Below the pieces are notes generated by a model. That model did no database searches. It saw nothing but the letters and a program-made list of their open reading frames with translations, and had not been told where the DNA came from. Made by a program: the position numbers and the translations under genes. Source: Convolutriloba macropyga (taxonomy: Eukaryota). Taken from it: a DNA stretch of 64,000 nucleotides. This document shows positions 13,120-45,016 of this stretch, piece by piece (positions within the stretch are counted from its first letter, which is position 1; each line of letters begins with the position of its first letter). The DNA lies in assembly GCF_964194025.1 (NCBI RefSeq), contig NC_134472.1, forward strand, positions 4,588,001-4,652,000, written 5' to 3'.

Positions 13120-13128
13120 CCCCCACTC
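13120..13128 (-). promoter_or_regulatory. polypurine tract
   Basis: Minus strand GAGTGGGGG immediately precedes TGTTAG (3' LTR start) and overlaps the pol stop codon. Confidence 0.8.
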
Positions 13129-16330: not shown

Positions 16331-16388
16331 AAGAGCTGCTCAGTATTCCTCGTCTGTTGAAGCCAATGTTAGACCCATTGCCACTGAC

Positions 16389-17328
16389 TCATGCATGTTT
16401 GCCTCCATCTCTTTGTTTCTTGCATGCCATGTCTAGATGACCTTTCTCACCACACTTGCTGCATTGTGCTGTCTCCTTCCTCCTGCAGTCCTCGGCAAAG
16501 TGTTTAGGGATCCCACATACAAAGCAGTTTCCTTTCTTGGGTTCCTTCTTGAAGTCACGCTTCACTGCCAGTGCCACTGAAGCACTTTGTCCCTTGTGTC
16601 TTTGTGTAGTGCTCTCATGAAAGTTCTGCAGCCTTTTCCTCAACTCTGTGAAGTTCGTTGCCGGGTTAAAACTTTCCTGTATAACAAAACTTACATATCT
16701 CATTGGCAGGCCATTGAGGACCAAGGCGTTGAAGAGGGTCTCTAAGACTGCTTCCCCTGCTTCTTGTAGATTTGTGAGCAACTCCTGTCCTCTGATGAAG
16801 AAGCTCTCCAAATCCTTAGCATCCTCTAGCTGCAGTCGAGCAAGCTGTGCCACCAAAAACACCACTGTCGGCGTCTACACATTCTGAAATCTCTTGCAAA
16901 AGCTTCCAAGCCTTTGTTCCATCTCCGATGACATCATCTCACTCACAGTCATGTCGCATCAGCATGAGGGTTGTTGCATCTAGATTCAGTGCCAGATGGC
17001 ACCACACATTGTTCCGTTTCTCCTTGATGTCTGCAACTTCCTTTTCATATGCATCCTTCAGCACCTTGTGGTTCTTCTCTTCATTGCTCCCTACATTGGC
17101 TTGTGGTGCAGGCTCATTGGGTTGCTTTTCTGTCCCAAGTAGTGATTTGTAAAGTCCTTTCGTCTGCATCATTGCCACAAATCTTGTGCTCCAGATTAGA
17201 AAGTCCTGTGCCTTTCCTGTGTAGGTCAGCAGCTTCACTGTCTGTTGATCAATCGTACTTTGAGCAGGCAAAACAGTAGTGAAAAGAAAAGGTACTAATA
17301 AGAAAAGGATTTTGACTGTCAAAAACAA
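16389..17328 (-). pseudogene. gag: copia gag with two CCHC zinc knuckles, disrupted
   Basis: YTGKAQDFLIWSTRF, VLNGLPMRY, CFVCGIPKHFAEDC and CSKCGEKGHLDMAC, split over 2-3 ORF pieces. Confidence 0.88.
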
Positions 17329-17365
17329 ATAATTTTTGTTTTAGAAATTATTTGACTTAGAAAAT

Positions 17366-17381
17366 TGCTGGGCCCATAACC
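17366..17381 (-). promoter_or_regulatory. primer binding site for the 5' half-molecule of initiator tRNA-Met
   Basis: Minus strand GGTTATGGGCCCAGCA directly follows the LTR end ...AACA. It is complementary to the anticodon-arm region of tRNAi-Met, as in Drosophila copia. Confidence 0.9.
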
Positions 17382-18000
17382 TGTTGGGTTATGGGTTCTC
17401 GCAAGCGGAAGAAAAAGCGTTTTCAACTAAATTGAAAAATTAATTTCTCAAAATGATAGAATAACAAGAATGATATTTTACAGTAGAATTTAGAGATTTA
17501 GAGGAGAGATCTGATTATTAGATCAAGATGGTGATTTGATTTTGGGGATGAAAAAAGTCTCAAAAATGAGCTGTATATATACCCATTATCAGTGCGCGAA
17601 ATTCAAGATACAAATCTAAACTTAGCATCATGATTTACAGTGGGGGTCGCAAGGGTTACCCAATATAGTTTGCTTCTGCAAATTTTCCAAAAATCAGTCG
17701 CAGGGGGTACCATAGATGGCTTGCACTAAAACTTTTCTAAGAATTCGTTCACATTTCCGGTGGTATCATATTCATTCAATACATGCTGGGAAGATTTTAC
17801 ATCAAATAATCTCACTCTAATAATAGTTATCTAGATTCACCAATTTGAACCGAATATTGATTCTAGGCACCATTTCTTGACGATTGATTTTCATAATTTC
17901 TGTGATCAAAATCAACTGTTCTTGTCTTTGTAATCTGGTAAGTTAAACTTCCTTTCTAATTCTCACTAAGTTCAAGACTAGTTTGATCGATATTCTAACA
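17382..18000 (-). repeat. copia 5' LTR, 619 bp
   Basis: TGTT...AACA termini, abuts the PBS, and its right part matches 12873-13119. Confidence 0.9.
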
Positions 18001-23200: not shown

Positions 23201-25794
23201 TCAATTATTCTGTCTTTTGAATAATTTTTCCGTCTTTTCTTTGTAGATGCTTCAGCTACTGTCACTTGCCCGCAAACATTGTTTGTTGCAATTATATGTG
23301 TCCGATTGGCTGGTTGTCTTTTGCTTGATCCGTATGTTTTGTCTAACCAGTCTGCCGTTTCGTTCTCAAAAAAAGTTGAAACTTGAGGGCATTAAGGTCA
23401 TCTGCATTTCTCTTACATTTTGTTTGTCAATTGTCCTTATATTTATTTCTTCTGAAAATGTTTTGCGAGTTCTTGAATGTGGCACGCATGTGTTTGTTTT
23501 TTGAAGACTAATATGACTAATCTGATTGAATAGGTCAAAGATGTTTAAAAAATTAGTGTTTTATCAAGTAATTTACAGTTCTTAGGATCAATTATTCTGT
23601 CTTTTGAATAATTTTTTGTTATTTCTTTATGGAGATGCTTCAGCTACTGTTATTTGCCCTCAAACATTGTTAGTAGAAATTATATGTGTCCAATTGGCGG
23701 TTAGTTTTTTGCTTGATCCGTATGTTTTGTCTAGCCGGTCTGGTCTGCTGTTTCATTCTCAAAAACAAGTTGAATCTTGAGGCATTAAGGTCCTCTGCAT
23801 TTCTCTTACATTTTGTGTGTCAATTGTCCTTATATTTATTTCTTCTGAAAATGTTTTGCGAGTTCTTGAATGTGGCACGCATGTGTTTGTTTTTTGAAGA
23901 CTAATATGACTAATCTGATTGAATAGGTCAAAGATTTTTTAAAAAAATTAGTGTTTTATCCAGTAATTTACAGTTCTTAGGATCAATTATTCTGTCTTGT
24001 GAATAATTTTTTGTTATTTCTTTATGTAGATGCTTCAGCTACTGTTATTTGCCCTCAAACATTGTTTGTAGAAATTATATGTGTCCGATTGGCGGTTAGT
24101 TTTTTGCTTGATCCGTATGTTTTGACTAGCCGGTCTGGTCTGCTGTTTCATTCTCAAAAACAAGTTGAATCTTGAGTGCATTAAGGTCCTCTGCATTTCT
24201 CTTACATTTTGTGTGTCAATTGTCTTTATATTTATTTCTTCTGAAAATGTTTTGCGAGTTCTTGAATGTGGCACGCATGTGTTTGTTTTTTGAAGACTAA
24301 TATGACTAATCTGATTGAATAGGTCAAAGGTTTTTTTAAAAAAATTAGTGTTTTATCCAGTAATTTACAGTTCTTAGGATCAATTATTCTGTCTTGTGAA
24401 TAATTTTTTGTTATTTTTTTATGTAGATGCTTCAGCTACTGTTATTTGCCCTCAAACATTGTTAGTAGAAATTATATGTGTCCGATTGGCGGTTAGTTTT
24501 TTGCTTGATCCGTATGTTTTGTCTAGCCGGTCTGGTCTGCTGTTTCATTCTCAAAAACAAGTTGAATCTTGAGGGCATTAAGGTCCTCTGCATTTCTCTC
24601 ACATTTTGTGTGTCAATTGTCCTTTTATTTATTTCTTCTGAAAATGTTTTGCGAGTTCTTGAATGTGGCACGCATGTGTTTGTTTTTTGAAGACTAATAT
24701 GACTAATCTGATTGAATAGGTCAAAGATTTTTTTTAAAAATTATTGTTTTATCCAGTAATTTACAGTTCTTAGGATCAATTATTCTGTCTTGTGAATAAT
24801 TTTTTGTTATTTCTTTATGTAGATGCTTCAGCTACTGTTATTTGCCCTCAAACATTGTTTGTAGAAATTATATGTGTCCGATTGGCGGTTAGTTTTTTGC
24901 TTGATCCGTATGTTTTGTCTAGCCGGTCTGGTCTGCTGTTTCATTCTCAAAAACAAGTTGAATCTTGAGGGCATTGAGGTCCTCTGCATTTTTCTTACAT
25001 TTTGTGTGTCAATTGTCCTTATATTTATTTCTTCTGAAAATGTTTTGCGAGTTCTTGAATGTGGCACGCATGTGTTTGTTTTTGAAGACTAATATGACTA
25101 ATTTGATTGAATAGGTCAAAGATTTTTTAAAAAAATTAGTGTTTTATCCAGTAATTTACAGTTCTTAGGATCAATTATTCTGTCTTGTGAATAATTTTTT
25201 GTTATTTTTTTATGTAGATGCTTCAGCTACTGTTATTTGCCCTCAAAAATTGTTTGTAGAAATTATATGTGTCCGATTGGCGGTTAGTTTTTTGCTTGAT
25301 CCGTATGTTTTGTCTAGCCGGTCTGGTCTGCTGTTTCTTTCTCAAAAACAAGTTGAATCTTGAGGGTGTTAAGATCTTCTGCATTTCTCTTACATTTTGT
25401 GTGTCAATTGTCTTTATATTTATTTCTTCTGAAAATGTTTTGCGAGTTCTTGAATGTGGCACGCATGTGTTTGTTTTTTGAAGACTAATATGACTAATCT
25501 GATTGAATAGGTCAAAGATTTTTTTAAAAAAATTAGTGTTTTACCCAGTAATTTACAGTTCTTAGGATCAATTATTCTGTCTTTTGAATAATTTTTTGTT
25601 ATTTCTTTATGTAGATGCTTCAGCTACTTTTATTTGCCCTCAAACATTGTTTGTAGAAATTATATGTGTCCGATTGGCTGTTATTTTTTTGCTTGATCCG
25701 TATGTTTTGTCTAGCCGGTCTGCTGTTTCGTTCTCAAAAACAAGTTGAATCTTGAGGGCATTAAGGTCCTCTGCATTTCTCATACATTTTTGTG
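23201..25794. repeat. tandem array of a ~396-bp unit, 6 full copies plus a partial seventh
   Basis: Unit starts (tcaattattctgtctt) at 23201, 23588, 23983, 24380, 24776, 25171 and 25568. The core copies are near-identical. Confidence 0.97.
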
Positions 25795-26773
25795 GGCTGC
25801 AAGTGTTTGGTTAACCGAAGCTGTCGAAGAGGCCAAATTTTACGATGTGAGGGGCTATTTAGGGAAGCTAGGATATGTCACCATATACACACAATTTTTG
25901 CTGTGAGTGACGATTTATTGAGGTTTGGACATACCACCACCCATTTATACACAGTTTTACACCCTCACGCTCACTTATCTCTGCTACCCTCGGTTTAGCC
26001 GCTCACTCAGGCGGTGAGTCTATCTTCTCTAGGTTAAGCTAGCTATTGTCAATTCCACACCATTTTCATTAGTCCGATGTTAGTCGGCTATGTTTCGAAC
26101 AGTTTACGACCAGTAGTTCAAATAGCTTTACTATTTTTCTCCTTCGTAGTTCAAATTATTTTCCTTTCCTCCTACTCTCAATTTTTCATGCACTGAACTG
26201 AAATTGTGCATGGGCAAAAACTGAATGCTTTCATCAAGACCCGAAAAGATAAAAAATTGTTTTAAAAGCTTGTTGGAAATATAGCTAGATAGAGAAAATA
26301 GGAAAATAATGATAGAATTTGGCAGTTGATATTGCGTTAAAAGTCTCAGAGTTGCTTTGAGGCTTTGTCCCTGAAATATTGTTTGCAAGTTGTCTGTTGC
26401 TTTTTATAGATCTAAGTAGGTACGGAGGCTTATGCGGCTGGCAATAGTTTTCAAATGCGAAAGTTATAACGCATTATTCTTACATATCGTGCTGCTCTCC
26501 TATACGAATTTTGTAAGATCTCGCAAGTAAATCTGAAAAAATGGTAATTGAACAATTTTTTCTGCTTCTCATTAAAAAAGTGGATTTTATCACTATTTTG
26601 ATGTCACTTTTTTAATGTTATTTTTAGCTCATAAGTTGGATTTTATTGGGTTAGTTTTTGTAAGATATTCTTATCTCTTCTGTAGAGAAGTTTCATTTTG
26701 AATCCCATTAATTAAAACCTATGACGAATCTCTGATTCGCCGAATCCTAATTCTCCTTTGATGCTTATAAAAT

Positions 26774-28805
26774 TCATAATTGATATGTATTTAAATTGAT
26801 ATAAAGTAGTATATTTTTTAACCAATCAGAATGCAGAATAATTATTTCTAAAAGTGCTGGAAAGAGAATAAATAATATGGGAGAGAGACTAAAAACTGGA
26901 TAATAATATAGTTGCATTCCAAGATTCTGTTTTTCCTAGTCGATTAGATTTGGGGATTTGTAGGCTGGAACCCGTATCCGCTGGCTGAAACAAGAAACTC
27001 GGTCTACCGACATTATATGGTGACAAGGGTGGGATTTTTGCCAGGTTCAGCTGAAACTCTTCTATCAAAGTTTCCTGGGCCTGACCCAAGTCATTACTGT
27101 TTGGGAGCTCTGGCAACGGCGGCAATTGCTGAAATAACTTGCCCAATGGTGGTGATAGCTCGATATTGAGCCTTACTGCACCTGTCGTTTTACAGGAGGC
27201 GAAATCCGATTTGATGAAAATGTTATTTCCTTCGAGTTCATTTCCACATTTTAATGTTATTACGCACGCACTGCATCCCTGGTGATGTTTAACATCAGCC
27301 TAGCCTGTTGAGTTGGAAGGCCTCTCCGTCATCAGGAAATCTGGATTTGCACTTGTGATTAGCCAGCGCCCATATCCAAGATTTTCGGCCTTCTCCTTTC
27401 GAGGCAATTGGATGCTTTTCACCCTACAGTTTTCCAAGGCTTCGTACTCGTCTTGAAAGAGAAGGGTAGCAATGCATGAATCCTTATTTTTTTGCAAAGA
27501 GAAACCATTTTGGCAGACGCTGTAGCTAACTGATCCAATACAGTTCTCAAGATCTCTCGGAGTCAGTATCGCAGCGAAGTGACGGTTCTCAGTAACTGCA
27601 ATATATTCGCTCTCAATTTCCCAGCGTATGGCGTGGCTGCCATTTGTGGGAATTGGAATCGTTTTCGCATTGTAAACATTCAGCACTGTAGATTTCGTCG
27701 CCATAGGTATCGCTAACGTAAAAATGATCCCGATTTCATTACTCAATACGCTTTTAAGCAGCGGAATTTCGTAAAATGATAAAACTTTAGAAATCGGTAT
27801 AGCCAACGAGAGCATATCCGTGGAGTGCAATTGTTGTCTTCCGATGGCTTCAAGAACTTCGGTAAGCTGTTCTTTTGGGAAGAGTGCCATTGGGAGAAAT
27901 CCGTTCGCCATATGACCCAAGTTCTGGAACAGGTTTGACTGAAATGTGTACAATGCTACGCGAAAACTCTTCGCAATAGTGTGTAGTGTGCTCTGAATGC
28001 CTTGTAGAGATATTAAGTTGTGGTTCAGCGACGTTCTCGTATAGAAGTACTGATGGCAGTTTCTATATTTGTGGATATTTGCATTGAAAGTTTTCATTTG
28101 CTCTTCTATTTGCTTGTTTTTATCGTTCTGAATATTCGTAATCTCGTCTTGTCGTCGCAGATGTGTCAGCGTCGAAGCTAACACGAATAGTCTTTGATTG
28201 TTTCTATCTTGGACTTGCGACCAACGCTTCTGCATTTTATTCACGTGGTCGACCGTTTGTAGAAGGGCTTGTTTGTTCAGATTACTGTCTCCTGCAGAGC
28301 ATGAACCCAGGATTGATGTCAGCGCACATGACAAGGTTGAGCCACTACTAAGTCCGAGGCCGAACAGACCTGCCCCTGCAGCGAAAGTAATTGGCGCTAC
28401 TCGTGTTGCCCTGTCAAATGAAGTACGTTTTGTATCTGCTGGGGTTAAAAGTGTTTGCGCGGACTTGATGAGCTCTCTTTGCCAGTCCCTCTTCGCCAGT
28501 TGCAGCTCGTATCGGGTTTGTTTGAGTATCCACTCAATTGTCAGGTTGCTTTTGCTCATTCTTGTGAAATTGAGTTGACATAAATTTGTATCAACTTTCC
28601 ACAGGTCGTCAAGTGTGGCGGCGACTTTATCCAGGTAGTTTTGCAACGAAGCATTAAGAGAAGGAAAGGGCAGAACAAACTCCGCGTTGATATAACGCTC
28701 CCCTAGGAGAATTTTCCTGTCAAAGTTGAATAGGATTCCTCGTTGGGAGTCTCTAAGTGCAGCGAAGCTGGTCATCAGGTGCGTAAAGGCAATGAGTTTC
28801 ATCAT
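26774..28805 (-). pseudogene. class I viral fusion glycoprotein (baculovirus F / errantivirus env-like), ~670 aa, one stop and a frameshift
   Basis: N-terminal hydrophobic leader; furin-type RATR followed by fusion peptide VAPITFAAGAGLFGLGL; heptad-rich helices; GFLPMALF, FTLAIP, VYNAKTIPIP, EYIAV..LTPRDLENC..YSVC..SCIATLL. The frame continues past TAG 27300-27302 (ADVKHHQGCSACVITLKCGNELEG..SDFASC) into the 26889-27146 ORF. A frameshifted TM segment (SLSPILFILFPALLEIIILH) follows. Confidence 0.8.
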
Positions 28806-28866
28806 TTTGGTTTTTTTTCCAATTCGCAGAGGTCGGAAAGTGGAGGACTGTGTGGGGTTATAGTAT

Positions 28867-29345
28867 TTATAATCGCTCCATCAATATGTGATTTCTGTTG
28901 AAATTACTGGCTGGATTGTTGAAAGTAACATTCAGAGTTTTTGTACTATTGTTAAACCTCCGGAATGTTGGGTAGAGTTCATCCGTTATATGTACAAAAT
29001 ATCCTCTCGAGCGGTCACCAAAATTAACTATTATGGCTGCACCAGATGGGACCAGTTGGACTCGTGACAATGCTCCAACTCGATCATTTATTTCTAGGCG
29101 CATGTTTCTTTTAATGGAGGTGCATGTAGGGAGGCATAGACATCGAGTCAATTTGTAACGTTTCCCTAGAACGGTCTAGTAAATCTTTGATGTAATTGAA
29201 GCTGTATTTGTGTGTCCAGAAAATAAGTATGCTGGGCTCGAAATCCTTCTCGAGGTTAATCAAAATGAAATTCTTTGAATCCGGGTAGAAAAAATGTTTA
29301 ATCTCATAAATCTCGCTTTCATTTAAGTTTAAGTTGAAAAAGTTC
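28867..29345 (-). pseudogene. orphan ORF upstream of env, probably frameshifted
   Basis: The open frame NLNESEIYEIKHFFYPDSKNFILINLEKDFEPSILIFWTHKYSFNYIKDLLDRSRETLQ overlaps near 29150 with the 94-aa ORF 28867-29151 in another frame. No recognisable family. Confidence 0.4.
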
Positions 29346-30416: not shown

Positions 30417-30731
30417 AGAAGTAGTTTTTTTTTGTTTTCTTTTAAATGTTTCCTTCCGTTTTTGTTCCCCTGCCTTTTTCTCTTGTTTTCAGTTTTTTTT
30501 TGCTTTCTGTTTTTTCTTTTTTTCTTTTTTTTCTGGCCGGTGTTGCCCCCGTTGCATCGCAACGGTGTTGTTGTTGAGGATTGTGTGGTGCAAGTTAGGA
30601 TCGTACCGGACGCCTAGCCGGTTTGCTTTCTAAGTATAAGCAATATGGGTTAATTTATGCCCAAATTTTTTTGAGGTCAAAAAACTTAGCAATTTCCAAG
30701 TGGACTAACCGAGTGCATTTACAGATTGAAG

Positions 30732-31022
30732 ATGGAAAACTGTAATGAAATTGTGAAAGATGATGGTATTCAAATGTTTTGTTGCAAAGATGCTACTTAT
30801 TTCATGGAAAAGGGGGTCTTTTTATCGCAAGTTCCTGGACGTGCAACTGAGTGTCCAGTTCTAGAAGTAGAAAATTTAGTTTTGAAAGGCAGCAGCCAGC
30901 AGTGTGATCTGTGGTTCGGGCTATTCATTGGGCTTGCTGTTTGTAATGTCTGTGTGTTGACTATTGTTTTGTACAAGAAGGCGAAGAAGTGTTGGAATCA
31001 ATTGAAAGCTCCAAAGGAATAA
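30732..31022 (+). CDS. small single-pass membrane protein
   Basis: MENCNEIVK..., a Cys-containing N-region, TM LWFGLFIGLAVCNVCVLTIVLY and basic stop-transfer KKAKK. Preceded by acceptor-like tttacag (30719-30725). Confidence 0.55.
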   Translation: MENCNEIVKDDGIQMFCCKDATYFMEKGVFLSQVPGRATECPVLEVENLVLKGSSQQCDLWFGLFIGLAVCNVCVLTIVLYKKAKKCWNQLKAPKE

Positions 31023-31294: not shown

Positions 31295-32105
31295 ATTGTA
31301 TGGTTTACACAATAAGGTAGCGCATGGTCTTGTGGTAACAGGCGGACAATCAACAGAAAGTGTAGCAATTTCTACAAGAGCAGGTGAGTAAAGAAAAAAT
31401 AAAATACGTTTTTATCAAAGACAAATGCTATGTTCAATTTGGGAAGGGACTCTGTTTTATGTCGGGAGTTCAATTGGATTTAAATGTTGTATTGTAGTTA
31501 AGGTGTTCATTGGCGATTACAAAAATAACAATTACTTCAGTTTTCGGGCAAAAAGAAATGATTTAAATCAAATTCGGGTGTTGACTTTATTATTATAATA
31601 AATTTTTTTTTAAATTAAATTACAATTTGTTTGCAAAAAATCAGTTTTATGTATTGTATATTTAGTAATGGAATTCAATCTCTACATGAATATAATGAGC
31701 CAGCTAGAGGACAGAAATCTGAAGAACCGCGAAGCGCTTGATTCAAGCGCATTGCGTAAAATTTTCTTAGGACGTCTCAGAAAGTTTAAATTAATAAACG
31801 GTGCACTACATTACGAAAACGCTCTGGTTCCTCTGAATTCAGAGTTTGAGTGTGCAATTGAAGAGTTGCACGAGCCGGGTGATGGAAGTCATTGTACTTC
31901 CATGAAAACGCTTATGAATGCGCTCCGGAGAAGCGGCATCAGGCTGCCCAGAGCTTGGGGTGGTCTTGTAATTGCGGTTGAAAGGTAAAACACACGTAGA
32001 AGTAATCTCGTTTTAGATTTTCTGAAATTAATTTTCTTTTGTAGCTATATACATCACTGTGTACCCTGTTTTACCACCGATCAAAACCCGAATGTATTGA
32101 GTTGA
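31295..32105 (+). CDS. predicted spliced stand-alone integrase-type H2C2 zinc-finger protein (exons 31295-31383, 31666-31984, 32045-32105)
   Basis: FKLINGALHY..LVP..IEELHEPGDGSH is in exon 31666-31984. Removing the 60-nt GT-AG intron 31985-32044 adds SYIHHCVPC and completes HHCC. The upstream exon (tttcag|...CAG|gtgagt) joins in frame to ATG 31668. Confidence 0.65.
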
Positions 32106-32347: not shown

Positions 32348-32510
32348 AATCGTCTTTATTTTTATTGTTTTTGAAAATGTTTTGTGAGTTCTTGAATGTG
32401 GCCTGCGTGTGTGTTTTTTGAAGACTAATTCGACCAATCTGGTTGAATAGGCCAATCAAAGATTTTTTAAAAAAAACAGTATGTCTCATCCAGTAATTTA
32501 CAGTTCTAAG
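32348..32510. repeat. resumed, more diverged remainder of the 396-bp unit
   Basis: tgaaaatgttttgtgagttcttgaatgtggc...gaagactaat...ttgaatagg...ccagtaatttacagttct matches the second half of the unit. Confidence 0.9.
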
Positions 32511-33158
32511 TAGAATGATAATTCAGAGAGCTCAAGTTTGAGTTTGTAGTTTTGATTGATCTTGACGCTTTTTTTAAAGAAAATGTACGTTTCTAAATAT
32601 TGAATATGAATTAAGTTTTTCTCTAAAATTTAGATTGAGCTGTTACTAATTTTGATTTCATGCTATAATGAAATGTTTCAGATAAAAGGTTATTATTTCC
32701 GTTCTAAAGGTTCTAAAGGCGTTCTGAAGTTGTTAACTGATTGTCCTGTTTTCCTTTTGCGATTGTGATCAGCAGTTTTAGGTTGATGACTTTGATTACC
32801 CTAATTCCAGAAGTGTTTGTGGATTTTTGTGCTTTGCCCCTTTGTTGCTGCTAGTTCATTTTGTTATTGCAGGCATTTTTAATTGAGAGTTTAATTTTTT
32901 TCTGATGATGCGCAGTTTCCACTGCTTGAGTGTATTAAAGCGTAGGTACTGAATTTAAGGGCTCTTACTACACTGGTTTTTGAAAAAAACATATTGCTTT
33001 TGCTCTCCCTATTTGCTATCTGCTTGCCCCATCATTTTTTGTTAGTATTAAAAATTAGTGTGTTTGTAGGTCAGAACTAGCTGTGCTCATTTAGTTTTTT
33101 TTTCTGTCAACGATCTTTACATTTGAATTAATTTTGAGGTTGGAATGATTTGATTTCG

Positions 33159-34865
33159 ATGGAACCACAAGAAGAAAACTGTTCAGCCAATGAGAATTCT
33201 TGTGCAGAATGTCAATTTGAGTTTGATGTCAGTTCTGAAGACTCAGAAGAGCTCAGTTACACCTGTTCAACTTGTAACGAGACCAAAGATGGAGCACTTA
33301 AGCTGCAATTTTGTAATTATTGTATTGTCTCACATGTTCGCAAGCAGCATCGTGTTTTGGACTCGAAAGGTTACGATATTTCAGTTTGTGATCAACATAA
33401 ATCAATTCACGAGTTGTTCTGTAGTTACTGCAATTTTGCCTTGTGTCGACAATGTATAACAGGACACAGGGGACATGAAATCATTCCAATTCGCGAGAAA
33501 TGCGCCGAGACGCGCAAGGAAGTTTTCAAATACATGAACGATTTCGATTTACTCACAAAGGATGTGAAATTCCAACAACATGTTCAGAAGGAGTGTTTGG
33601 AAAGTTTGGACGATGCTGTAGCATTTTGTAGACCGGAAACTGTTGTTGATGTATTGATTAGTCTAATTGCGGAAATGGTCAAAGATGTCGCGAGCGATGA
33701 AGATGTTAAAAGTTTGATTTCTGAACTGAGCGCCAAATTCGATCAAGATAGTAAGTTGACTCTCACTAAAGCGAAGTCAACTGAGTTTGATAGAGTGGTT
33801 ACAGAAGCGGACGATATTGGATTGAAGTTGAGAGAAGTGTTGCAGAATTCGGACGGAATGCTCGTTAACAAATTCAAAGCGATGGTAGACCAGATGGACA
33901 CCTCATTGAAACTACAGAAAGACCAGGTCGCAAATGTCAACTTCATGCAGCCATTTTATGTTAATAATCCTCAGTTTAGAAGCGATCTTAAGGTTGTTGT
34001 AAGAAAGTTTTTTAAGGATGTGGCATGGCCCACTGCTAAAACTGTGAAGCCGGTGATAGTGGGTTCGGAACGTGGACCCCCCATTACCGGTAATCAGAGA
34101 ATCGTATTATTTCCATTCGATGTCTATTGCCTGGTAGAGATGAACCATGAAGTCAACGAGAGGTTGGTTCGGATCATCAAGTGTGGTAATAAAACAGCGC
34201 TGATACCTCCTCGAAACTGTTTCGAATGCGGCAGACTTCTGGGTCAATTATCGACCATCATGTATGTATGTTGTCAAAGGTCTCTGGCCAAGGGCACAGA
34301 TCCCTACAATTTGGTTTCTTTTGTCAAGTTAAATAAAAAATCTCGTAAAATTGACTACAAACAGTCTCCTAAGACTCTTGAAAAGACAGTTGAAATAGTC
34401 TACCCCATAGGCATGGAACTCAAAAGGAGCTTGGGTGAATTCGTTGCCATATACGGAGATATTTTCCATATTGTCAATCCGTTCTGTGACGACACGGAAA
34501 CGCATATTCACCCTAAGCCACTATTTGACGGCGAGATAGTTCGAAACAACTTTTTTGTATACTACAGTTTGTGTATATCAGCATTAAATTGCCTTATTTA
34601 TGACAATGAATCGAAGAAATTGAGACCATATCTGACCGATAAAACGTTTCAGTCATATTCATGCCCCGAAAAACCGTCAGCTGTTACAGTGAGCAACGAT
34701 TTCAAGACTCTTTTCGCTGTGTTAGAATCAACTGGTGAAATTTTTGTGTTTTCCAGTGGTAGAGTCTGTAGATTTGTATTTCGAGTCCAAAAAGCTTTTG
34801 CTGCTCATCTGTTTGTTGAATTGTTAGAATTATGGCTACGTGGCAAAGTTGGCCTGACTGTTTAG
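33159..34865 (+). pseudogene. TRIM-like paralog 3, 3'-truncated (homology ends ~34760)
   Basis: Open from MEPQEENC with both B-boxes, EKCAETRKEVFKYMNDFD, WPTA, LNCLIYD and CPEKPSAVTVS. After EIFVFSSG the sequence is unrelated, lacking HGLR and the last ~115 aa of the 37679 paralog. Confidence 0.8.
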
Positions 34866-35906: not shown

Positions 35907-37678
35907 ATTTTTAATTGACAATAAACATTTTTTGGTCGCAACATCTAATTTAGGGTTTTATTTGTTACTTACCAGAAACTTTGATTTACGCAATTAATTA
36001 TCATTGGTGACCAAAAATCACGCTGCTGAAAAATGCTTGTGACTGAATTATTTTATTTTGCTTTTCGATTTGGATCATAATGGATTTTCAAATAAATTTA
36101 ATCTGTGTTTTTTTGGTATAATTTTCCCCGTTTCGTTTTGGATTAATGGTATTAGTTGCTCTTTCAATTTTCTTTGATTTTCTTCCAATTGCTCGTGAAG
36201 TGAGTTCAGAGTCTAAAAACCAGTCCGGCTCCTTTTTGATCAGATTTCGGCGTTTCTCATATTTCACTAAGAGAACAAGAGGTGGTGATAACAAAACAAC
36301 ACCCGTGATATGCATTAGTTATAGATTTTGAATCGTTGCAGTCCACGGGCTAAAAATTTTCATTTTTATCTTTCCTTATTTTCCTCAATTCATGTAGGAA
36401 GATAAAATTTAAAAAAAATTGTAAATACTTGTAATTTGTAGCTTAAAAATATTTGTAAAAAAATAGAGCGAATTCTGCGGGAATCTCATTTTCCTCTCTG
36501 TCAGTTCAGGGACATCGTAAAGAATGAAGGCACTGGAAATTAATTCTGTTTAATTCTTTTTATGTTCAATAATTTAAAATAGTTTTTCAATTGGTGATTT
36601 GAAATGGTATCTTACAGGTCATTAAGATGCAGATTTTTACCCCAATTTCTGCTTTGGTTCCTTAATATATCAGATTTTCTTATATGGCTGAAATTATTTT
36701 TTTCCTTGAATTTTTTTGCGATTGCTGGGAAATGGAAATTCGGATACAACACTGCTCGTAGATTTTAGAAATACTACTGATTTACTACCGAAATGACACG
36801 AGAAACAGTCTTGAATGTCCTGAGAAGTTGCAACTTGCTTTGAACCAATGGGAACTGGATATGATACATACAGCTCATTTTAGCTAAAATGTGGGCACAG
36901 AACTTCACGAAATACTTTATACATCTTTAGCTACGATTGGTGGTCATTTTCATCAGATTTCTTTGCGACTGTTGTAGCTTATCATTTCAAAAAAAATTCT
37001 ACTGAAAATTTGAGACTTCTCTGGGAAATAGTTCGTCCGCTTAATATTCAGCAGCAGGTTGTTAATGCCAAAAGTGTTTCTTCTCCAGAAACATGGGAAA
37101 AATTGAATCAAAATGTGCTATAAAAATTTCTGTTCGATGTTAAATTTTAAACGAGAAAAGCATTTTCGAAAGCATTTTTTCAGATTGTGTTGTGCATTGT
37201 TAGGGGTCGGTTTTTTCAGTTTTTGAAAATTTGGGCGTTCAATTAAATAATTTGAGTCAACTGACTTTGATCAGAGGTACTTTCATTCCGTCAATTGATT
37301 GTTAACATCAATTAAATTTCTTTGATTTTCTTGTCGGGATGGTGTGATTTTTTTATACTCTCCCAACATTAACAAAAGTTGTGTCTCGATGCGAGTTTTA
37401 TATTTGGCTATTTTACCCTATAATTTGATGTTGATCGAAATCCGTATTCTTAAAAGCGAATGTCATTTTGCAGCTTTAGTTCAATAATTTCAGTGGACAA
37501 TAATTACAGTGAGCCTCATATCTGCAGTTTTCCGTTTTTCTGCAATTGTGAAACGCTTCTCATCTGAACTATCTGAAAGTAGCTTTCATAGGGGGGGGGG
37601 GGAGGGGGCAAACAAGCATGTCTTTCAGTCATTTTTTATCTTTGGTCTTGGATATCTTCGGTATTTCAGTTCAAAATT

Positions 37679-39595
37679 ATGGAAAAGGTCTGCTCGATCT
37701 GCGAAAGCGATTTTTCGATGGAATCGGATAATAGCGAGGAACTGCCCTTCAGTTGTGAAACATGTGAAGAGAAGAGAGCATCGGCTGAGAAGCAACTGTT
37801 TTGCAACTTATGCGTTGGTCAGCACGTGCGCAGATTGCACCGTGTTCTAGACTCGAAAGGATATGAAGTTTCAGTTTGTAAACAACACAAATCTATGGAC
37901 GAATTGTTCTGCACGGATTGCGATCATTCTTTTTGTCGGTTGTGCCTTATGCTGCACAAAGAGCATGATTTTGCGCCAATTCATGAAAAATGCGCAGAGA
38001 CACGTAAAGAAGTTTTTAAGTACATTAATCAATTTGACTCTCTTACGAAGGATGTTAATTTTCAGCAGCAGGTTCGAAAGGATTGTTTGGAAGCTTTAGA
38101 CAAAGCTAATGAGTTGTGTAATCCGGACACGGTTTTGGATGTACTGATCAAGATAATGAGTGATATGGTCCGAGAAACAGCAAAAAATGAGGATATTCAA
38201 ACGCTGCTGACAAGTTTGCAAGAACAGTTCCGCCAAGATTCCAACAAAACGACTCTAACAAAAGCAACGTCAGCTGAATTTGACCAGCTGGTGGCTAAAT
38301 CTGTTGAGCTGGGTGAGAACTTACGCCAAGTGTTGCAGAACTCAGATGCTGTCCTCGTTGACAAATTCCAAGGCTTGTTATCTGAAATGGAAAATTGCTT
38401 GAAGAAGCAGAGAGGGCAAGTTGGATGTGTCAGCTATATGCACCCGTTTTATATAAATAACGTGTCATTTCAAGGAAAACTGTCAAGCCTTATTAGTGTT
38501 TTCTTCACATCGATGGTGTGGCCCACCGCCTTTACTAAAGAGCCCCTTCAGATGCAGTTGAAACCTGGAGTATTGTTACGTGACAATTTCAAAATTGTTC
38601 TTCATCCCTTCGATGTATATACTTCTGTTGAGATGGACGACAGAGACCAAATCACTTTTGTGTCAACTGAAAAATGTGGCAACCGTACGCCTGCTCTTCC
38701 AACTAATTGTCTAAATTGTGGCTATCCTTTGTGGGGAATTTCAAGATGCAGTCAAGCTTCATATATGCGCTGTCCTGAGAACCCTCTTATAGATCCCTAT
38801 ACTTCAATTACGTCTTGTAACACTGTGCAACCTCGCCGTGAAGTTTCAGTCACCGACCAGAAGACGGTCGTTAGACTTTTGGAAATTGAGTTTCCATTGG
38901 AGGTGGAATTGACAGTAAGATTGGGTGATTTTGTTGCTATGTTTGAGGATGGACTTTACATATTCAACTCATTTGACAATTCTGAGAACAGCGCTTCTTT
39001 CAGGCTACTTTTTGATAAGCAGAACATTGAGCAATTTTTGCTCGTTTATTCTAGCTTGAATTTGGCGCGATTGAATTGCTTGATATATGACGAAAAGTTA
39101 AAAGAGATACGTTCAATTTTGGAGGATAAATCTTTTGAACGATATCAGTGTCCTGAGAAACCGTCGGCTGTGACTGTTAGCAGAGATTTCATGACACTAT
39201 TTGTGGCTCTGAAATCCACTGGCGAAATTCTAGTGTTATCTGGAGGAAAGACAGAAATTATTCCGCCTGTACATCATGGCTTGCGGACAATTGACGCTCT
39301 TCATTTTGTTATCAATGAATCGTACACTCCGTTTTTGCTTGCGTGGAATTACACGAAGAGGATCTGTGTCATTCTTCGTCAGTACACCTCTAAATACATT
39401 CCGATCGGCGTTGTCTCTCCAACGGTGCCTGATGACGGCTCTGCAGATTTGACACTTACAGAAGTCAAGGTCGTCAAACAACATCAAAAACTTGAGTTTC
39501 CAGATATGCTCTATTTGTTCTACACCGATGCTAAAAATAAGACTCCGAGCAGCTTCAAAATTACAGTTAAAGAGTTGCTGGCTTACTTTAAATAA
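37679..39595 (+). CDS. RING-less TRIM-like protein, paralog 4, 638 aa, intact
   Basis: CSIC..CETC..CNLCVGQHVRRLH (B-box1), CKQH..CTDC..CRLC..HKEH (B-box2), coiled coil, WPTA, LNCLIYD, CPEKP, HGLRTID. Confidence 0.9.
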   Translation: MEKVCSICESDFSMESDNSEELPFSCETCEEKRASAEKQLFCNLCVGQHVRRLHRVLDSKGYEVSVCKQHKSMDELFCTDCDHSFCRLCLMLHKEHDFAPIHEKCAETRKEVFKYINQFDSLTKDVNFQQQVRKDCLEALDKANELCNPDTVLDVLIKIMSDMVRETAKNEDIQTLLTSLQEQFRQDSNKTTLTKATSAEFDQLVAKSVELGENLRQVLQNSDAVLVDKFQGLLSEMENCLKKQRGQVGCVSYMHPFYINNVSFQGKLSSLISVFFTSMVWPTAFTKEPLQMQLKPGVLLRDNFKIVLHPFDVYTSVEMDDRDQITFVSTEKCGNRTPALPTNCLNCGYPLWGISRCSQASYMRCPENPLIDPYTSITSCNTVQPRREVSVTDQKTVVRLLEIEFPLEVELTVRLGDFVAMFEDGLYIFNSFDNSENSASFRLLFDKQNIEQFLLVYSSLNLARLNCLIYDEKLKEIRSILEDKSFERYQCPEKPSAVTVSRDFMTLFVALKSTGEILVLSGGKTEIIPPVHHGLRTIDALHFVINESYTPFLLAWNYTKRICVILRQYTSKYIPIGVVSPTVPDDGSADLTLTEVKVVKQHQKLEFPDMLYLFYTDAKNKTPSSFKITVKELLAYFK

Positions 39596-41619
39596 TTAGC
39601 AAAAATTTCAGTTTGTTCGACGAAGTGTGCCAAAAACTCCCGAGGCCTGAGTAACTGTTTCATATGCAGAATTAATTGCACAAGGGTTTTTCAAATGTCT
39701 CGTAAGTTCTTAATTTAACTCTAAATACTCGTTGATCTCTTTCATTGAATACGAATATGATCTGTGGGATCTTTTCCGTTTTGTGCAACCCCCACCCCCC
39801 CAGCTTAGTGTGCGCATATTATTTGCACCCCCCAGACGCACGTGCCATATTTTTACATAACGATTCACTGTGTAATGACACCTGCGCTGTAACAGTGGAC
39901 AGTGGGGTGCATATCGCTCTGGGGTCGCAAACTGAAACGATCCTTCTTTCTCTGTATATCAATTTTTTTTGTTCAACCCGATGTCTTCCGAGAAAGAATT
40001 TGTTGATTTTGAGCTAACTAATTCAAATTTAAATTAGTTAAATTAGTTAAAATTATTAGAAGACAGTTTTTTATCGTGCCCAACAAAAAGGGGGCTTCAA
40101 AGTTAACAGGAATTTATTGGTAATTCATTTCTCACACACCGGTATGATTTGGTTTTTTTCGTCTTTGAAGGTCGAGAAGCGGTGCATTTTTATCATTAAA
40201 TTTTTCTAACAGTTTTTATAAACGAAGTAATTCTGAGAATTTTTTCGATACTTTACGGCCTAAGATTATTTGAAAAACGCTAAATGTTAACTTTTCCAAA
40301 AACAAATGGTTTTTGAAGATATAATTTGTCGCGCGTAAAACTCATGGTCATCGTGCTGGAGAATCTGTGGTCAATTGTAATTTTTTCCAACCTTTGACTC
40401 TATTCGTTGTTACAAGTGGTCTTCTTAAATAAAAATGCTGCTGACTACAATTTAAACTCATTTGATGATATCTTTTGTAAGTCCATTTTATTTTCATATT
40501 GCTAAGAAACAGATTGAAACTGCTCCCAAATTTTCATTTGAATGTGCTTTTTCATGCAAAAATTATGCTTGACCGTTTTGAGTTTTATCTTGTTTTTTAT
40601 GCGTTTTTCATGGTCTAAATTTCTCTACTCATTTGCAATTTTAAACAGCTGAACGTAATTGGCGGCAGTTTACTACTTAAAGTCAAGTGAAAGGCGCGCA
40701 AAAATGGGTGTCCTTTTTAACTTTATGTGGTACTTTAGAGATTCTAATGACTCATTTGAAGACCCTCCTTGTGAATTTTTTGCCCCCTCCCCAAAAGTCT
40801 TAATTCCCACCCCCTCCCTCTAGAGAAATTCAATTAACGTTAGTTTTTTTGGTTTGTATAGTCATGTGAGATAATATGGTTACTTCATTATTTTCAAATC
40901 AGGGCAGCTCAATTCTTCGGAAAGCAAATTTCTTTGTAAAAGCAATAAGAAAACTTTTATTTTTAAAATCAATGTTCCAATGTACATTGATTTCCAATAA
41001 ACATTTTGATTTGTTTTGTTTCATTTTTTTTTGACACAGGCGTTTTCATGTTCGTTTAATTGAATGATTCTGAAATTAACATAATTGTGACCTGTAAAGG
41101 GTGTCATTTTAATACAAAAATCTTGGTGAGATTCTATTTTTTTGCTAATTAGCTCTAGTGATTTAAGAGGCAACGCGCCGCAATTTAAAAATGTTCAAAC
41201 TCGGTGTGTTTCTTGTGACAGAAAACCATTCGTGCTAAATTTTGTTTTACCTCCTTATAAACATTCTTCGCCAAAAATTTCATTTCGTTTTCATGCAATG
41301 TTTACTTTGAAAGTTTATTGCATTTGTGTTAGGAAGTCTGGGCCAATACTGTAAAAAATGGTGCATTACTAGATTAGAAGCAGCATCTCTTAATTGCAAG
41401 TCTAGTGTGCTAGCCATTTATAAAACCTAGGCTAAGAATTCAGCATCTCTTAAACCCGTTTTGTTATTCTTTCTTGATCCTTAAGGCTACATTGAGAATT
41501 CCAGTATACGTTGAACTTGTAGAGCCTCTTGTGACCCGCTTTGTGATTAAGCTCATGGACTGGGTTCGGGGCACAAACTGTTTTTTGGGGTCTAAGCAGT
41601 CGCTTTTACTGTGAAAGCG

Positions 41620-41690
41620 GACCAGTACATGATTCGAACCAGCATCTCTTACTTGCTAGCTTACTGAGCTAACCATTGCACCAACTTGTC
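41620..41690 (-). mobile_element. tRNA-derived SINE head or tRNA pseudogene
   Basis: A box TGGTGCAATGG and B box GGTTCGAATC, with a 6/7 acceptor stem GACAAGT/ACTGGTC. The anticodon and T stems do not pair. Confidence 0.65.
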
Positions 41691-43698
41691 TTCAGCTCTC
41701 CAACTTGGGCATATCTTATAACCCGTTCTCTCGTTCTTTCTTCTTCCTCAAGGCTTCATTTATCAAGCGTGGTATACATCGAACAATTATAGCTTCTTGT
41801 CAAGCCTATCTTGTGCACAATTTACGTACGCTTGTTCTCTCTCAACCTTTTAACATTTGTTTAGCATTTTACAAAATCTTCTTTTATGTTCGTTGTTGAG
41901 CTATTTGAGTTTTTTGCCAATTTTTGTTTCAAATTTAATAATATTTTTTTTCATTTTGTTCACTTAAACTATTTTCTAGCTTCGAACTTAAATTATAAGT
42001 TTGTAGTTTTTTCTATGTCAAGCAAAACCTTTTTTATATCAGATTTTTCAAAGAAAATTAAACGACCCAGTGAGGAGCTCTGAAATGTTTTAAAACTTTT
42101 TGAAAAATACAGCGGTTTTGCTGCTTCATAATAGGTTTTAAAAATAATTGTGTTGTAGATGAGCTAGCAGAAAATTAGATTGTTTTGTTGATAAATCTTT
42201 CATAAGTCGTGTTTTTGGAAGAAAAATGTTCATCCCTCCGCGTATAACCTCCTTCTGAGTCCTAATAACAGATCGCTCTCTACAGATCGCTTAAGGAGTA
42301 GGTATGTACAGATTTTTTATGTTAATTTTTTGTCTGTGTTGTATTTTTGAACAAATTGATCAGAACAGCTCTTGAAAGGGTCTGCTATTCCTCAGGTAAT
42401 GTTCAATAGTTTTTTGGCCGCACGCGTTTGCAGTTTAAATTTATAAATAACTATCGCTCGAAACTTTTTGTATGGATATATAAATAAAGAATGAATATAT
42501 AAATTTAGACAAGAAATTTCTTTATTCAGAGGGGAGTTACAGCAGAAATGAGAAAAGGTTTGTAATTTATACTGAATTGCTCATTTAAGAATTGAGCAAA
42601 ACTTTAACGTTTAATGACTTCGAATTCTTTATTTATGCAAAAATTTTGCTTGACCGTTTTGAGTTTTATCTTGTTTTTTATGCGTTTTTCATGGTCTAAA
42701 TTTCTCTACTCATATGCAATTTTAAACAGCTGAACGTAATTGGCGGCAGTTTACTACTTAAAGTCAAGTGAAAGGCGCGCAAAAATGGGTGTCCTTTTTA
42801 ACTTTATGTGGTACTTTAGAGATTCTAATGACTCATTTGAAGACCCTCCTTGTGAATTTTTTGCCCCCTCCCCAAAAGTCTTAATTCCCACCCCCTCCCT
42901 CTAGAGAAATTCAATTAACGTTAGTTTTTTTGGTTTGTATAGTCATGTGAGATAATATGGTTACTTCATTATTTTCAAATCAGGGCAGCTCAATTCTTCG
43001 GAAAGCAAATTTCTTTGTAAAAGCAATAAGAAAACTTTTATTTTTAAAATCAATGTTCCAATGTACATTGATTTCCAATAAACATTTTAATTTGTTTTGT
43101 TTCATATTTTTATGACACAGGCGTTTTCATGTTCGTTTAATTGAATGATTCTGAAATTAACATAATTGTGACCTGTAAAGGGTGTCATTTTAATACAAAA
43201 ATCTTGGTGAGATTCTATTTTTTTGCTTATTAGCTCTTGTGATTTAAGAGGCAACGCGCCGCAATTTAAAAATGTTCAAACTCGGTGTGTTTATTGTGAC
43301 AGAAAACCATTCGTGCTAAATTTTGCTTTACCTCCTTATAAACATTCTTCGCCAAAAATTTCATTTCGTTTTCATGCAATGTTTACTTTGAAAGTTTATT
43401 GCATTTGTGTTAGGAGGTCTGGGCCAATACTGTAAAAAATGGTGCATTACTAGATTAGAAGCAGCATCTCTTAATTGCAAGTCTAGTGTGCTAGCCATTT
43501 ATAAGACCTAGGCTAAGCATTCAGCATCTCTTAAACCCGTTTTGTTATTTTCTTGATCCTTAAGGCTTCATTGAGAATTCCAGTATACGTTGAACTTGTA
43601 GAGCCTCTTGTGACCCGCTTTGTGATTAAGCTCATGAACTGGGTTCGGGGCACAAACTGTTTTGTGGGGTCTAAGCAGTCGCTTTTACTGTGAAAGCG

Positions 43699-43769
43699 GA
43701 CCAGTACATGATTCGAACCAGCATCTCTTACTTGCTAGCTTACTGTGCTAACCATTGCACCAACTTGTC
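43699..43769 (-). mobile_element. tRNA-derived SINE head, duplicate copy
   Basis: Same as 41620-41690, with a perfect D-stem GTGC/GCAC in this copy. Confidence 0.65.
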
Positions 43770-45016
43770 TTGAGCTCTCCAACTTGGGCATATCTTATAA
43801 CCCGTTCTCTCGTTCTTTCTTCTTCTTCAAGGCTTCATTTATCAAGCGTGGTATACATCGAACAATTATAGCTTCTTGTCAAGCCTATCTTGTGCACAAT
43901 TTACGTACGCTTGTTCTCTCTCAACCTTTTAACATTTGTTTAGCATTTTACAAAATGTTCTTTTATGTTCGTTGTTGAGCTATTTGAGTTTTTTTTGCCA
44001 ATTTTTGTTTCAAATTTAATAATATATATTTTTTTCATTTTGTTCACTTAAACTATTTTCTAGCTTCGAACTTAAATTATAAGTTTGTAGTTTTTTTCTA
44101 TGTCAAGCAAAACCTTTTTTTATATCAGATTTTTCATAGAAAATTAAACGACCCAGTGAGGAGCTCTGAAATATTTTAAAACTTTTTGAAAAATACAGCG
44201 GTTTTGCTGCTTCATAATAGGTTTTAAAAATAATTGTGTTGTAGATGGGCTAGCAGAAAATTAGATTGTTTTGTTGATAAATCTTTCATAATTCGTGTTT
44301 TTGGAAGAAAAATGTTCATCGCTCAGCGTACAACCTCCTTCTGAGTCCTAGTAACAGATCGCTCTCTACAGAGCGCTTAAGGAGTAGGTATGTACAGGTT
44401 TTTTATGTTAATTTTTTGTCTGTGTTGTATTTTTGAACAAATTGATCAGACCAGCTCTTGAAAGGGTCTGCTATTCCTCAGGTAATGTTCAATAGTTTTT
44501 TTGGCCGCACGTGTTTGCAGTTTAACTTCATAAATGACTATCGCTCGAAACTTTTTGTATGGATATATAAATATAGAATGAATATGTAAATTTAGACAAG
44601 AAATTTCTTTATTCAGAGGGGAGTTACAGCAGAAATGAGAAAAGGTTTGTAATTTATACTGAATTGCTCATTTAAGAATTGAGCAAAACTTTAACGTTTA
44701 ATGACTTCGAATTCGTTATTTATGAAAATTTGAGCCAATACTGAAAGTCAGCTTCTCTTTTTATTGTTACTGTTACAGTTTCTAATGGTTCTAATCACAG
44801 GACTTTTTGACTGCGTTAAGGATTTATTTTATGCGAATAATTATTAAACTATTGTAATTAGTATCATGTAAACTCCTCTTGTTGATTGCTTTGCTGGCAT
44901 CCAGTTGGAAGTAGCTGTTTTGACTGGTGACTGGCTAACGAAATGGTGATACCTGGGTAACATTGTGTCTATCCGTGAAGAGCATTAAAAAAAGCTTTCA
45001 GAACTTAAGATGAAAT

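What the first reader, a model, noticed from the sequence alone, without database searches (positions are those of the whole stretch)
31295..32105. Antisense, intron-containing stand-alone integrase zinc finger
Seen: the ORF-track protein stops before its cysteines. A 60-nt intron (AG|gtaaaa...ttttctttttgtag|C) restores H-x6-H-x35-C-x2-C with the typical V..YI..C..C ending, followed by a stop with no catalytic core. A second intron (31384-31665, gtgagt...tttag) joins an 89-nt exon in frame. Known: introns survive in retroelements only when antisense to the genomic RNA, which fits its orientation opposite env. Intron-bearing Ginger-type DNA transposases also have H2C2. Inference: an accessory or dominant-negative regulator of integrase multimerisation.
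Basis: partly seen in the sequence, partly recalled or inferred. Interest (0 to 1): 0.7.

Follow-up and report, generated by a model that had tools for sequence, protein, structure and literature searches.

The report
Retrotransposon's backward zinc-finger deubiquitinase gene
The stretch is a broken copy of an intron-containing gene that virus-like jumping elements carry backwards between their polymerase and envelope genes; other copies continue into a domain predicted to strip ubiquitin tags, likely a tool against host silencing, so it is not a stand-alone zinc finger.

Summary
The 60-nt intron, the H-x6-H-x35-C-x2-C motif and the orientation opposite env are in the sequence. The 'stand-alone' reading is wrong. 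The window copy is a rearranged relic of an env-bearing Ty3/gypsy LTR element that breaks at 32072, and its stop lies in unrelated flank. All 8 other close copies examined run on. They show a five-exon antisense gene of about 340 aa: an integrase-like H2C2 finger joined directly to an OTU-like cysteine protease, with no DDE core. The gene has at least 144 matches in this genome. In 11 families (24-54% identical) it keeps its position between pol and env, most intron phases and its His/Cys residues. OTU support: HHalign 96.7%, hits to Pfam-OTU proteins, and 33 of 33 listed (individually weak) fold matches. Zinc-finger homology is only moderately supported. The cassette is swapped between backbones 95% identical, and sister elements carry an intron-containing JmjC-like gene in the same slot. 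Likely role: a counter-silencing accessory enzyme (inferred; splicing and activity not observed). My 8 literature searches found no description. This scan noted the same gene earlier on other DNA of this genome (e1-8585436).

The parts
26720..27017 (+). LTR copy (298 bp) of the family-A element, 5'-type (followed by the start of the primer-binding region, 27018-27029), opposite in orientation to the internal segment it is joined to
   Evidence: 88-98% identical to the LTRs of 7 other family-A loci
27030..28880 (-). env gene, partial: 526-aa frame 27300-28880 with a basic R-x-x-R site followed by a hydrophobic peptide; its 3' end is cut at the 27030 junction
   Evidence: env frames of about 750-820 aa in sister elements
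30690..31022 (+). small antisense ORF (Cys-Cys ectodomain plus hydrophobic segment); probably the family-A version of a small membrane-protein gene seen upstream of the cargo gene in families C, E, F, G, L, N
   Evidence: likeness to the other families judged by eye (one search did not list this place); no Pfam hit
31295..31383 (+). candidate upstream exon (89 nt, no ATG), probably 5' untranslated
   Evidence: mixed acceptor-to-ATG phases in 10 families
31384..31665 (+). candidate 5' intron; acceptor position conserved across families, donor seen only in family A
31666..31984 (+). exon A: ATG 31668, integrase-like N-terminal domain with the two His ligands
   Evidence: (M1, H68, H75 invariant in 11 of 11)
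31985..32044 (+). 60-nt phase-2 GT-AG intron that splits the H2C2 motif
32045..32072 (+). first 28 nt of exon B (C-x2-C); the rest of exon B and exons C-E (OTU-like domain and tail) are absent from this copy
32073..32105 (+). non-element flank read in frame to a chance stop; not part of the gene

Best explanation
The stretch is the truncated 5' part of a conserved, intron-containing antisense gene of env-bearing Ty3/gypsy elements, whose other copies encode an integrase-like zinc finger fused to a predicted OTU deubiquitinase that likely helps the element counter host silencing. Shown: position between pol and env on the opposite strand, conserved exon structure, conserved His/Cys residues, no DDE core, exchange of the cassette between near-identical backbones, and a JmjC-like gene in the same slot of sister elements. 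Inferred: the gene is transcribed from its own antisense promoter and spliced. Its introns persist because the packaged genomic RNA is the other strand. The Cys-His(-Glu/Asn) site cuts ubiquitin or a ubiquitin-like tag. The finger and the short basic tail bring the enzyme to nuclear targets at the element's own DNA or integrase. I commit to chromatin-directed counter-silencing because the alternative cargo is also a predicted tag-erasing enzyme. The window's own copy is most likely dead.
For: Truncation: 8 of 8 copies continue; a contig in each of 4 of 4 DNA runs runs on past 32072 as in the other copies. Family size: 144 matches of 150 scored and 150 of 150 scored. Context: env upstream on the opposite strand in 19 of 20 sampled loci, integrase downstream in 17 of 20; RT-RNaseH-H2C2-rve order. 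Expected intron phases in 8-11 of 11 families per boundary. Selection: pS 0.74-0.91 against pN 0.33-0.45 in the 13 of 55 family pairs above 37% identity. OTU: HHalign 96.7%, E 3.4e-10, score 66 against a maximum of 21.8 in 40 shuffles; 13 of 16 host OTU domains outrank all decoys. The exon-B profile finds three Pfam-OTU proteins at E 1-3e-5 among 1.84 billion. The AlphaFold model (pLDDT 73, no known OTU in its alignment) gives 33 of 33 listed PDB matches that are OTU-family structures. Swap: families D and H are 95.2% and 94.3% identical in env and pol but 26-46% in the antisense exons; 10 and 10 of 20 loci with that backbone carry each type. JmjC-like cargo in 13 of 20 loci picked for lacking an OTU hit; one of them is 89% identical in pol to OTU family N.
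Against: No exon or read-through scores on Pfam OTU, Integrase_H2C2 or zf-H2C2, and the genome search with PF02338 did not list these loci. No fold match reached E 0.001 (best 0.038); a single-sequence model failed (pLDDT 38). The Asp of the usual D-G-x-C loop and the G-G of the W-G-G loop are absent, and one family lacks the acidic or amide residue after the His. Zinc-finger homology is weak to moderate: E 0.027 and not above shuffles; E 7e-4, probability 26%, above 60 of 60 shuffles; the reverse HMM test did not separate it from decoys. The JmjC hits are below Pfam's curated cut-offs. The substrate (chromatin or element proteins) rests only on the identity of the swap partner.
Confidence: 0.6

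Rival explanations
1. Same gene, active deubiquitinase, but the target is the element's own proteins: the finger docks on integrase or the pre-integration complex and the enzyme protects it from proteasomal destruction.
For: The N-terminal domain aligns end to end with Ty3/gypsy integrase N-termini, with the four ligand positions in register. [quoted passage not shown]
Against: A JmjC-like gene without this finger fills the same slot in 13 of 20 sampled sister loci, so the slot's job does not need the finger.
Confidence: 0.22
2. The OTU-like fold is a non-catalytic or atypical module (ubiquitin binder, decoy, or protease for another tag); the protein is a selected accessory factor but not a deubiquitinase.
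For: Divergent Cys-loop and W-G-G loop; no Pfam OTU score; weak fold E-values.
Against: The catalytic-position Cys and His are invariant in 11 of 11 families at 24-54% identity.
Confidence: 0.12
3. A passively carried remnant of a Ginger- or Helitron-type transposase gene that once inserted into the element and has no function now.
For: Domain content resembles Ginger1 (H2C2, OTU, introns; PMC2836005 passages), and the OTU module matches OTU proteins that include a Pif1-helicase one.
Against: Saturated synonymous against low non-synonymous divergence, and distances that track env (Mantel rho 0.70, p 0.002) and integrase (0.60, p 0.010); conserved splice phases. This may describe the origin but not the present state.
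Confidence: 0.03
4. One reading: a stand-alone integrase zinc finger acting as a dominant-negative regulator, with the window's short form being the functional product.
For: The short frame is open and ends in a stop. The rearrangement places an LTR upstream on the same strand, so a transcript is conceivable.
Against: The short form is in 1 of 9 family-A places compared; its last 10 codons come from flank; it carries private amino-acid changes against the contigs laid from the four runs (31851, 31908).
Confidence: 0.03

Closest known systems
Antisense additional ORFs of LTR retrotransposons (maize Grande gene23, rice RIRE2, Silene Retand, Botrytis Boty; PMC7264820, parts 1-2 of 3 of the text read)
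   Same: Conserved ORF downstream of pol, antisense to gag-pol, proposed accessory role; own promoter shown for Grande
   Different: The reviewed ORFs have unknown function and no clear homologues, and the review calls for a search for spliced forms. Here the gene has five exons, a recognisable enzyme domain, lies between pol and env, and is exchangeable.
Ginger1 DNA transposases (PMC2836005, passages seen)
   Same: H2C2 finger, C-terminal OTU domain in some, GT-AG introns
   Different: No DDE core between finger and OTU; carried inside LTR elements, not between terminal inverted repeats
Helitron-borne OTU and VTD deubiquitinases (PMC9741609, passages seen)
   Same: Transposon-encoded deubiquitinase-type domain; the Cys-x-x-Leu-Gly segment before the OTU is shared with such proteins
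   Different: There it is a domain of the RepHel protein of a DNA transposon. The paper says transposon OTU domains were untested for activity. Here it is a separate antisense gene of a retroelement.
env-carrying Ty3/gypsy 'errantiviruses' of invertebrates (PMC13524379; abstract, outline and passages seen)
   Same: LTR-gag-pol-env layout; env with a basic cleavage site followed by a hydrophobic peptide
   Different: 'antisense', 'OTU', 'accessory' and 'ubiquitin' do not occur in its main text; the 500-1000 nt pol-env gap limits it states would exclude elements with this roughly 4-5 kb insert
Bdelloid LTR elements with swapped ORF3 enzymes (PMC5408684, passages seen) and orchid Ty3/gypsy with an m6A demethylase domain (PMC9289625, search listing only)
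   Same: LTR elements that capture enzyme genes, different ones in sister families
   Different: 'intron' and 'OTU' do not occur in the bdelloid paper; there the ORF3 enzymes take the place of env, while here the cargo accompanies it
Spliced antisense genes of complex retroviruses such as HTLV-1 HBZ (recalled, no call)
   Same: Spliced antisense accessory gene in the 3' part of a provirus
   Different: Non-enzymatic; unrelated sequence

Membership tests
OTU cysteine protease (PF02338 clan) | Catalytic Cys in a G-x-C loop followed by a helix | tested here: met
   G70 and C72 invariant in 11 of 11; in register with host OTU domains
OTU cysteine protease (PF02338 clan) | Catalytic His with an acidic or amide residue two positions on | tested here: met
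   His invariant in 11 of 11; Glu in 9, Asn in 1, Leu in 1
OTU cysteine protease (PF02338 clan) | Asp before the G-x-C loop and a W-G-G variable loop, as in the host OTU domains | tested here: not met
   No Asp; a Trp ends exon C in the rows where that exon was recovered, but G-G is absent
OTU cysteine protease (PF02338 clan) | Score above Pfam cut-off | tested here: inconclusive
   No hit on single exons or intron read-throughs; the domain is split over three exons, and the spliced form was not scanned
OTU cysteine protease (PF02338 clan) | OTU fold | tested here: inconclusive
   33 of 33 listed Foldseek PDB rows are OTU-family, but the best E is 0.038 and TM by target is at most 0.52; the model includes two intron-derived inserts
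OTU cysteine protease (PF02338 clan) | Cleaves ubiquitin or a ubiquitin-like tag | not testable with these tools
   needs an assay
Integrase H2C2 zinc finger (PF17921/PF09337) | H-H-C-C ligands conserved | tested here: met
   both His 11 of 11; second Cys 11 of 11, first Cys 10 of 11
Integrase H2C2 zinc finger (PF17921/PF09337) | Profile homology to integrase N-terminal domains | tested here: inconclusive
   No Pfam hit; HHalign E 0.027 and E 7e-4 over 107 columns, above 60 of 60 shuffles; reverse HMM test negative
Ginger1 transposase | DDE core after the finger | tested here: not met
   exon B runs from C-x2-C to the OTU Cys in about 65 residues in 11 families
Ginger1 transposase | Element bounded by terminal inverted repeats | tested here: not met
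   the gene lies inside elements bounded by LTRs of about 300 or 610 bp
Ginger1 transposase | YPYY motif upstream of the finger | not tested
   no Ginger1 sequence was in hand
env-bearing Ty3/gypsy (host element) | LTRs and RT-RNaseH-integrase order | tested here: met
env-bearing Ty3/gypsy (host element) | env homologous to a viral fusogen (F or gB type) | tested here: inconclusive
   ORF of about 750-820 aa with a basic site and hydrophobic peptide; no fusogen hit in Pfam or PDB sequences
Antisense additional ORF of LTR elements | Conserved antisense ORF downstream of pol in most copies of a family | tested here: met
Antisense additional ORF of LTR elements | Antisense transcript | not testable with these tools
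   see Tried and rejected

The most novel reading that the evidence does not exclude
These elements are complex, retrovirus-like genomes with a spliced antisense transcription unit (short non-coding leader exon, small membrane-protein gene, enzyme gene). The enzyme position is an exchangeable slot, filled either by a zinc-finger deubiquitinase or by a JmjC-type demethylase and swapped by recombination between backbones in an arms race with host chromatin silencing.
Probability: 0.4. Interest if true: 0.85.

Novelty: new variant of a known kind. Interest (0 to 1): 0.66.

Why it matters
The antisense extra ORFs reviewed for LTR retrotransposons have no assigned function. Here one has a testable enzyme activity, 11 natural variants, and a natural control in sister elements that carry a different predicted tag-erasing enzyme in the same slot. 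If the activity holds, it shows retrotransposons encoding their own counter-silencing enzymes and keeping multi-intron genes through reverse transcription. It also warns that errantivirus surveys with short pol-env gap filters miss such elements. The window's own copy is only a relic.

Tried and rejected
Expression: no RNA holder listed. The four runs offered are contigs of unrecorded kind that cover the introns and look like DNA; they show no joint at any predicted junction. This is no evidence on splicing either way. No listed contig bridges the 32072 junction (in one run a contig starts at 32078), so whether the window's break is fixed, polymorphic or an assembly feature is open. Pfam scans of exons and read-throughs gave no relevant hit. 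PDB sequence searches with exon profiles gave no hit below E 1. Word-indexed protein searches gave one hit, close to a subfamily of this genome, and none for longer proteins. A metagenome scan with one exon found no relative among 584 pattern matches. The 56 hits carry no genomic context and some are repeats (P0028, P0055, P0059), so spread to other species is not established. The protein atlas look-up was not obtained. The single-sequence structure was unusable. The VIA-align searches did not run. The viral fold library gave only weak rows, several of them OTU-type. An AlkB-type demethylase as the alternative cargo was searched with PF13532 (6 places) and not followed up, because the cargo proved JmjC-like. 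Rows dropped: exon C was not recovered with the expected phases in the copies used for families D, F, J, L; family C was left out of the zinc-finger profile (long insert) and of the acceptor-distance count; locus L148 was left out of the host OTU set. Literature: 8 searches found no LTR element with an antisense spliced OTU or JmjC gene. Subscription papers and Repbase entries were not searchable, and no supplements were read; those of PMC13524379 might list such elements.

Full report
OBSERVATION. There is an exon 31666-31984 with ATG at 31668, a 60-nt GT-AG intron 31985-32044, and a frame giving H68-x6-H75-x35-C111-x2-C114 that ends at TGA 32103-32105. An env-like ORF lies on the other strand at 27300-28880. 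Pfam names neither.

THE STOP IS AN ARTEFACT OF THIS COPY. A search of the own genome with exon A gave 23 matches. Window 27030-32072 matches seven other loci in whole or in part at 85-98%, and every match ends at 32072. At that place 8 of 8 copies examined continue in frame, and a contig from each of the 4 runs does the same. The other loci are LTR elements of about 14-16 kb with gag, pol (RT, RNase H, H2C2, rve) and env. The window keeps one LTR with the start of its primer-binding region (26720-27029), joined to an inverted internal piece; gag-pol is gone. No listed contig bridges the break, so I cannot say whether it is fixed.

THE REAL GENE. Two families read by hand show five coding exons. 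A holds the two His. B holds C-x2-C, a Cys-x-x-Leu-Gly segment and G-x-C. C ends in Trp. D holds His-Cys-x-Pro. E is a short, often basic tail. The total is about 340 aa. Exon B and exon D queries gave 144 and 150 matches among 150 scored candidates each (lower bounds). Of 20 loci sampled across the score range, 19 have env upstream and 17 have integrase downstream within 10 kb, both on the opposite strand. With phases left free, the best exon candidates in 11 families had the expected phases at 11 (A 3'), 10 and 10 (B), 8 and 10 (C), and 11 and 10 (D) of 11; two families were the scoring references. Families are 24-54% identical (median 32%). Synonymous sites are saturated (pS 0.74-0.91) while pN is 0.33-0.45 in the 13 closest of 55 pairs. 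Distances track env (rho 0.70, p 0.002) and integrase (rho 0.60, p 0.010). Some families were recently mobile: two family-B copies are 99.1% identical over 14.4 kb, and 8 family-E places are 100% identical in the membrane ORF.

DOMAINS. There is no room for a DDE core: about 65 residues separate C-x2-C from the OTU-position Cys. The C-terminal part aligns to 16 Pfam-detected host OTU domains with HHalign probability 96.7% and E 3.4e-10 (score 66; 40 shuffles at most 21.8). Thirteen of those 16 outrank all decoys. The exon-B profile finds three Pfam-OTU proteins among 56 hits in 1.84 billion, one of them with a Pif1 helicase domain. An AlphaFold model built without any known OTU sequence (pLDDT 73, pTM 0.71) returns OTU-family structures in 33 of 33 listed PDB rows, though none reaches E 0.001. 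Cys and His are invariant in 11 of 11 families. Against this, the Asp before the Cys loop and the G-G after Trp are missing, and Pfam does not score single exons. The finger's ligands are conserved. Its profile similarity to integrase N-termini is weak in one test, moderate in a second (E 7e-4, 107 columns, above 60 of 60 shuffles) and absent in the reverse HMM test.

AN EXCHANGEABLE SLOT. Families D and H share env and pol at 95.2% and 94.3% nucleotide identity, but their antisense cassettes do not align as DNA and are 26-46% identical per exon. Of 20 loci with that backbone, 10 carry each cassette. I had the OTU reading before consulting earlier notes; the D/H swap I found afterwards, from my own distance matrix. 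Note e1-8585436 reported the same gene on other DNA of this genome, called it swappable, and gave the lead that sisters carry a demethylase-like gene. I tested it on 20 loci that have the small membrane gene but were not in my OTU lists. Thirteen carry a JmjC/cupin-like gene, with an intron in the 4 inspected; 6 carry OTU-type exons (2 weakly); 1 carries neither. Pfam gives Cupin_8 E 6.6e-6 and JmjC E 0.002-0.009 in 3 of 3 tested, all below the curated cut-offs. One JmjC element is 89% identical in pol to OTU family N. Note e1-8577441 gave me the errantivirus paper. Note e1-8580557 reports another OTU cassette, inside LTRs, which I did not check.

MECHANISM. Shown: architecture, conservation, selection, swapping. 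Inferred from established retroelement biology: introns persist only opposite the packaged RNA, so the gene needs its own antisense transcript. Inferred from sequence and model: an OTU-type Cys-His protease with a targeting finger. Inferred from the swap partner: a nuclear role in erasing silencing marks (0.6 overall). Rivals are protection of the element's own proteins (0.22), a non-catalytic module (0.12), a passive remnant (0.03), and a functional stand-alone finger (0.03). The origin is plausibly a captured Ginger1-like or Helitron-like piece; this was not tested against Ginger sequences.

KNOWN SYSTEMS. Antisense extra ORFs are known in plant and fungal LTR elements, with unknown function (PMC7264820, two of three parts read). 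OTU domains are known in Ginger1 and Helitron proteins (PMC2836005 and PMC9741609, passages). Env-carrying Ty3/gypsy elements are widespread (PMC13524379, abstract and passages). Enzyme capture is known in bdelloid LTR elements (PMC5408684, passages). The gene works like a viral accessory deubiquitinase (that class is recalled, and seen as rows). It is not a Ginger1 transposase: DDE core and inverted repeats are not met. Eight searches found no spliced antisense OTU or JmjC gene in an LTR element; coverage is limited to open papers and no supplements were read.

VERDICT. Observation partly confirmed; interpretation partly supported; new variant of a known kind; interest 0.66. The window copy is a relic. 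The gene family it belongs to is the finding, and this scan had already noted it once on other DNA.

Noticed in passing
L128 ~4040-4150, L130, L132, L140, L142, L137 (gene strand, just upstream of the antisense genes): A similar exon-like segment of about 40-60 nt (acceptor to GT donor, no ATG) precedes the membrane-protein gene, and in family J (L137) precedes the enzyme gene: a candidate shared leader exon (read by eye).
   Followed up: partly
L128, L130, L132, L142, L208, L211, L212, L217, a few tens of nt before the cargo gene's acceptor: A short conserved motif precedes both OTU-type and JmjC-type cargo genes (by eye); candidate promoter or processing element.
   Followed up: no
13 of the 20 loci L208-L227: Intron-containing JmjC/cupin-like antisense gene in the same slot of sister elements.
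   Followed up: partly
window 30690-31022; L124, L128, L130, L132, L140, L142: Second antisense gene: small signal-peptide, Cys-Cys, transmembrane protein; 76 matches of 100 scored with the family-E version; no Pfam family.
   Followed up: partly
window 26720-27030; L024/L025: The window relic joins a 5' LTR to an inverted internal segment; the copy on C8 also has an inverted LTR-env end. This resembles auto-integration or inversion products.
   Followed up: partly
family-A LTRs: LTR ends are TA...TA rather than TG...CA, with 5-bp target duplications visible at two loci.
   Followed up: no
L003/L004, L009/L010, L021-L023, L141: Tandem duplications of the antisense-gene region inside several decayed copies.
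   Followed up: no
window 9195-11279, 11856-12506, 33138-34865, 37592-39595, 50214-52142, 58318-60235: Tandem array of six long single-frame B-box and coiled-coil host genes, some broken.
   Followed up: no
window about 12877-18000: Decayed Ty1/copia element on the - strand.
   Followed up: no
window 23201-25794 and 32348-32510: 395-bp tandem repeat (6.6 copies) with a partial copy just beyond the element's break.
   Followed up: no
window 52860-53008; 40548-44728: Near-perfect palindrome of about 150 bp; 2.08-kb tandem duplication.
   Followed up: no
L144-L150, L156: Open frames of mostly about 2500 aa with an OTU domain, several clustered on C10 and C4; not identified.
   Followed up: no
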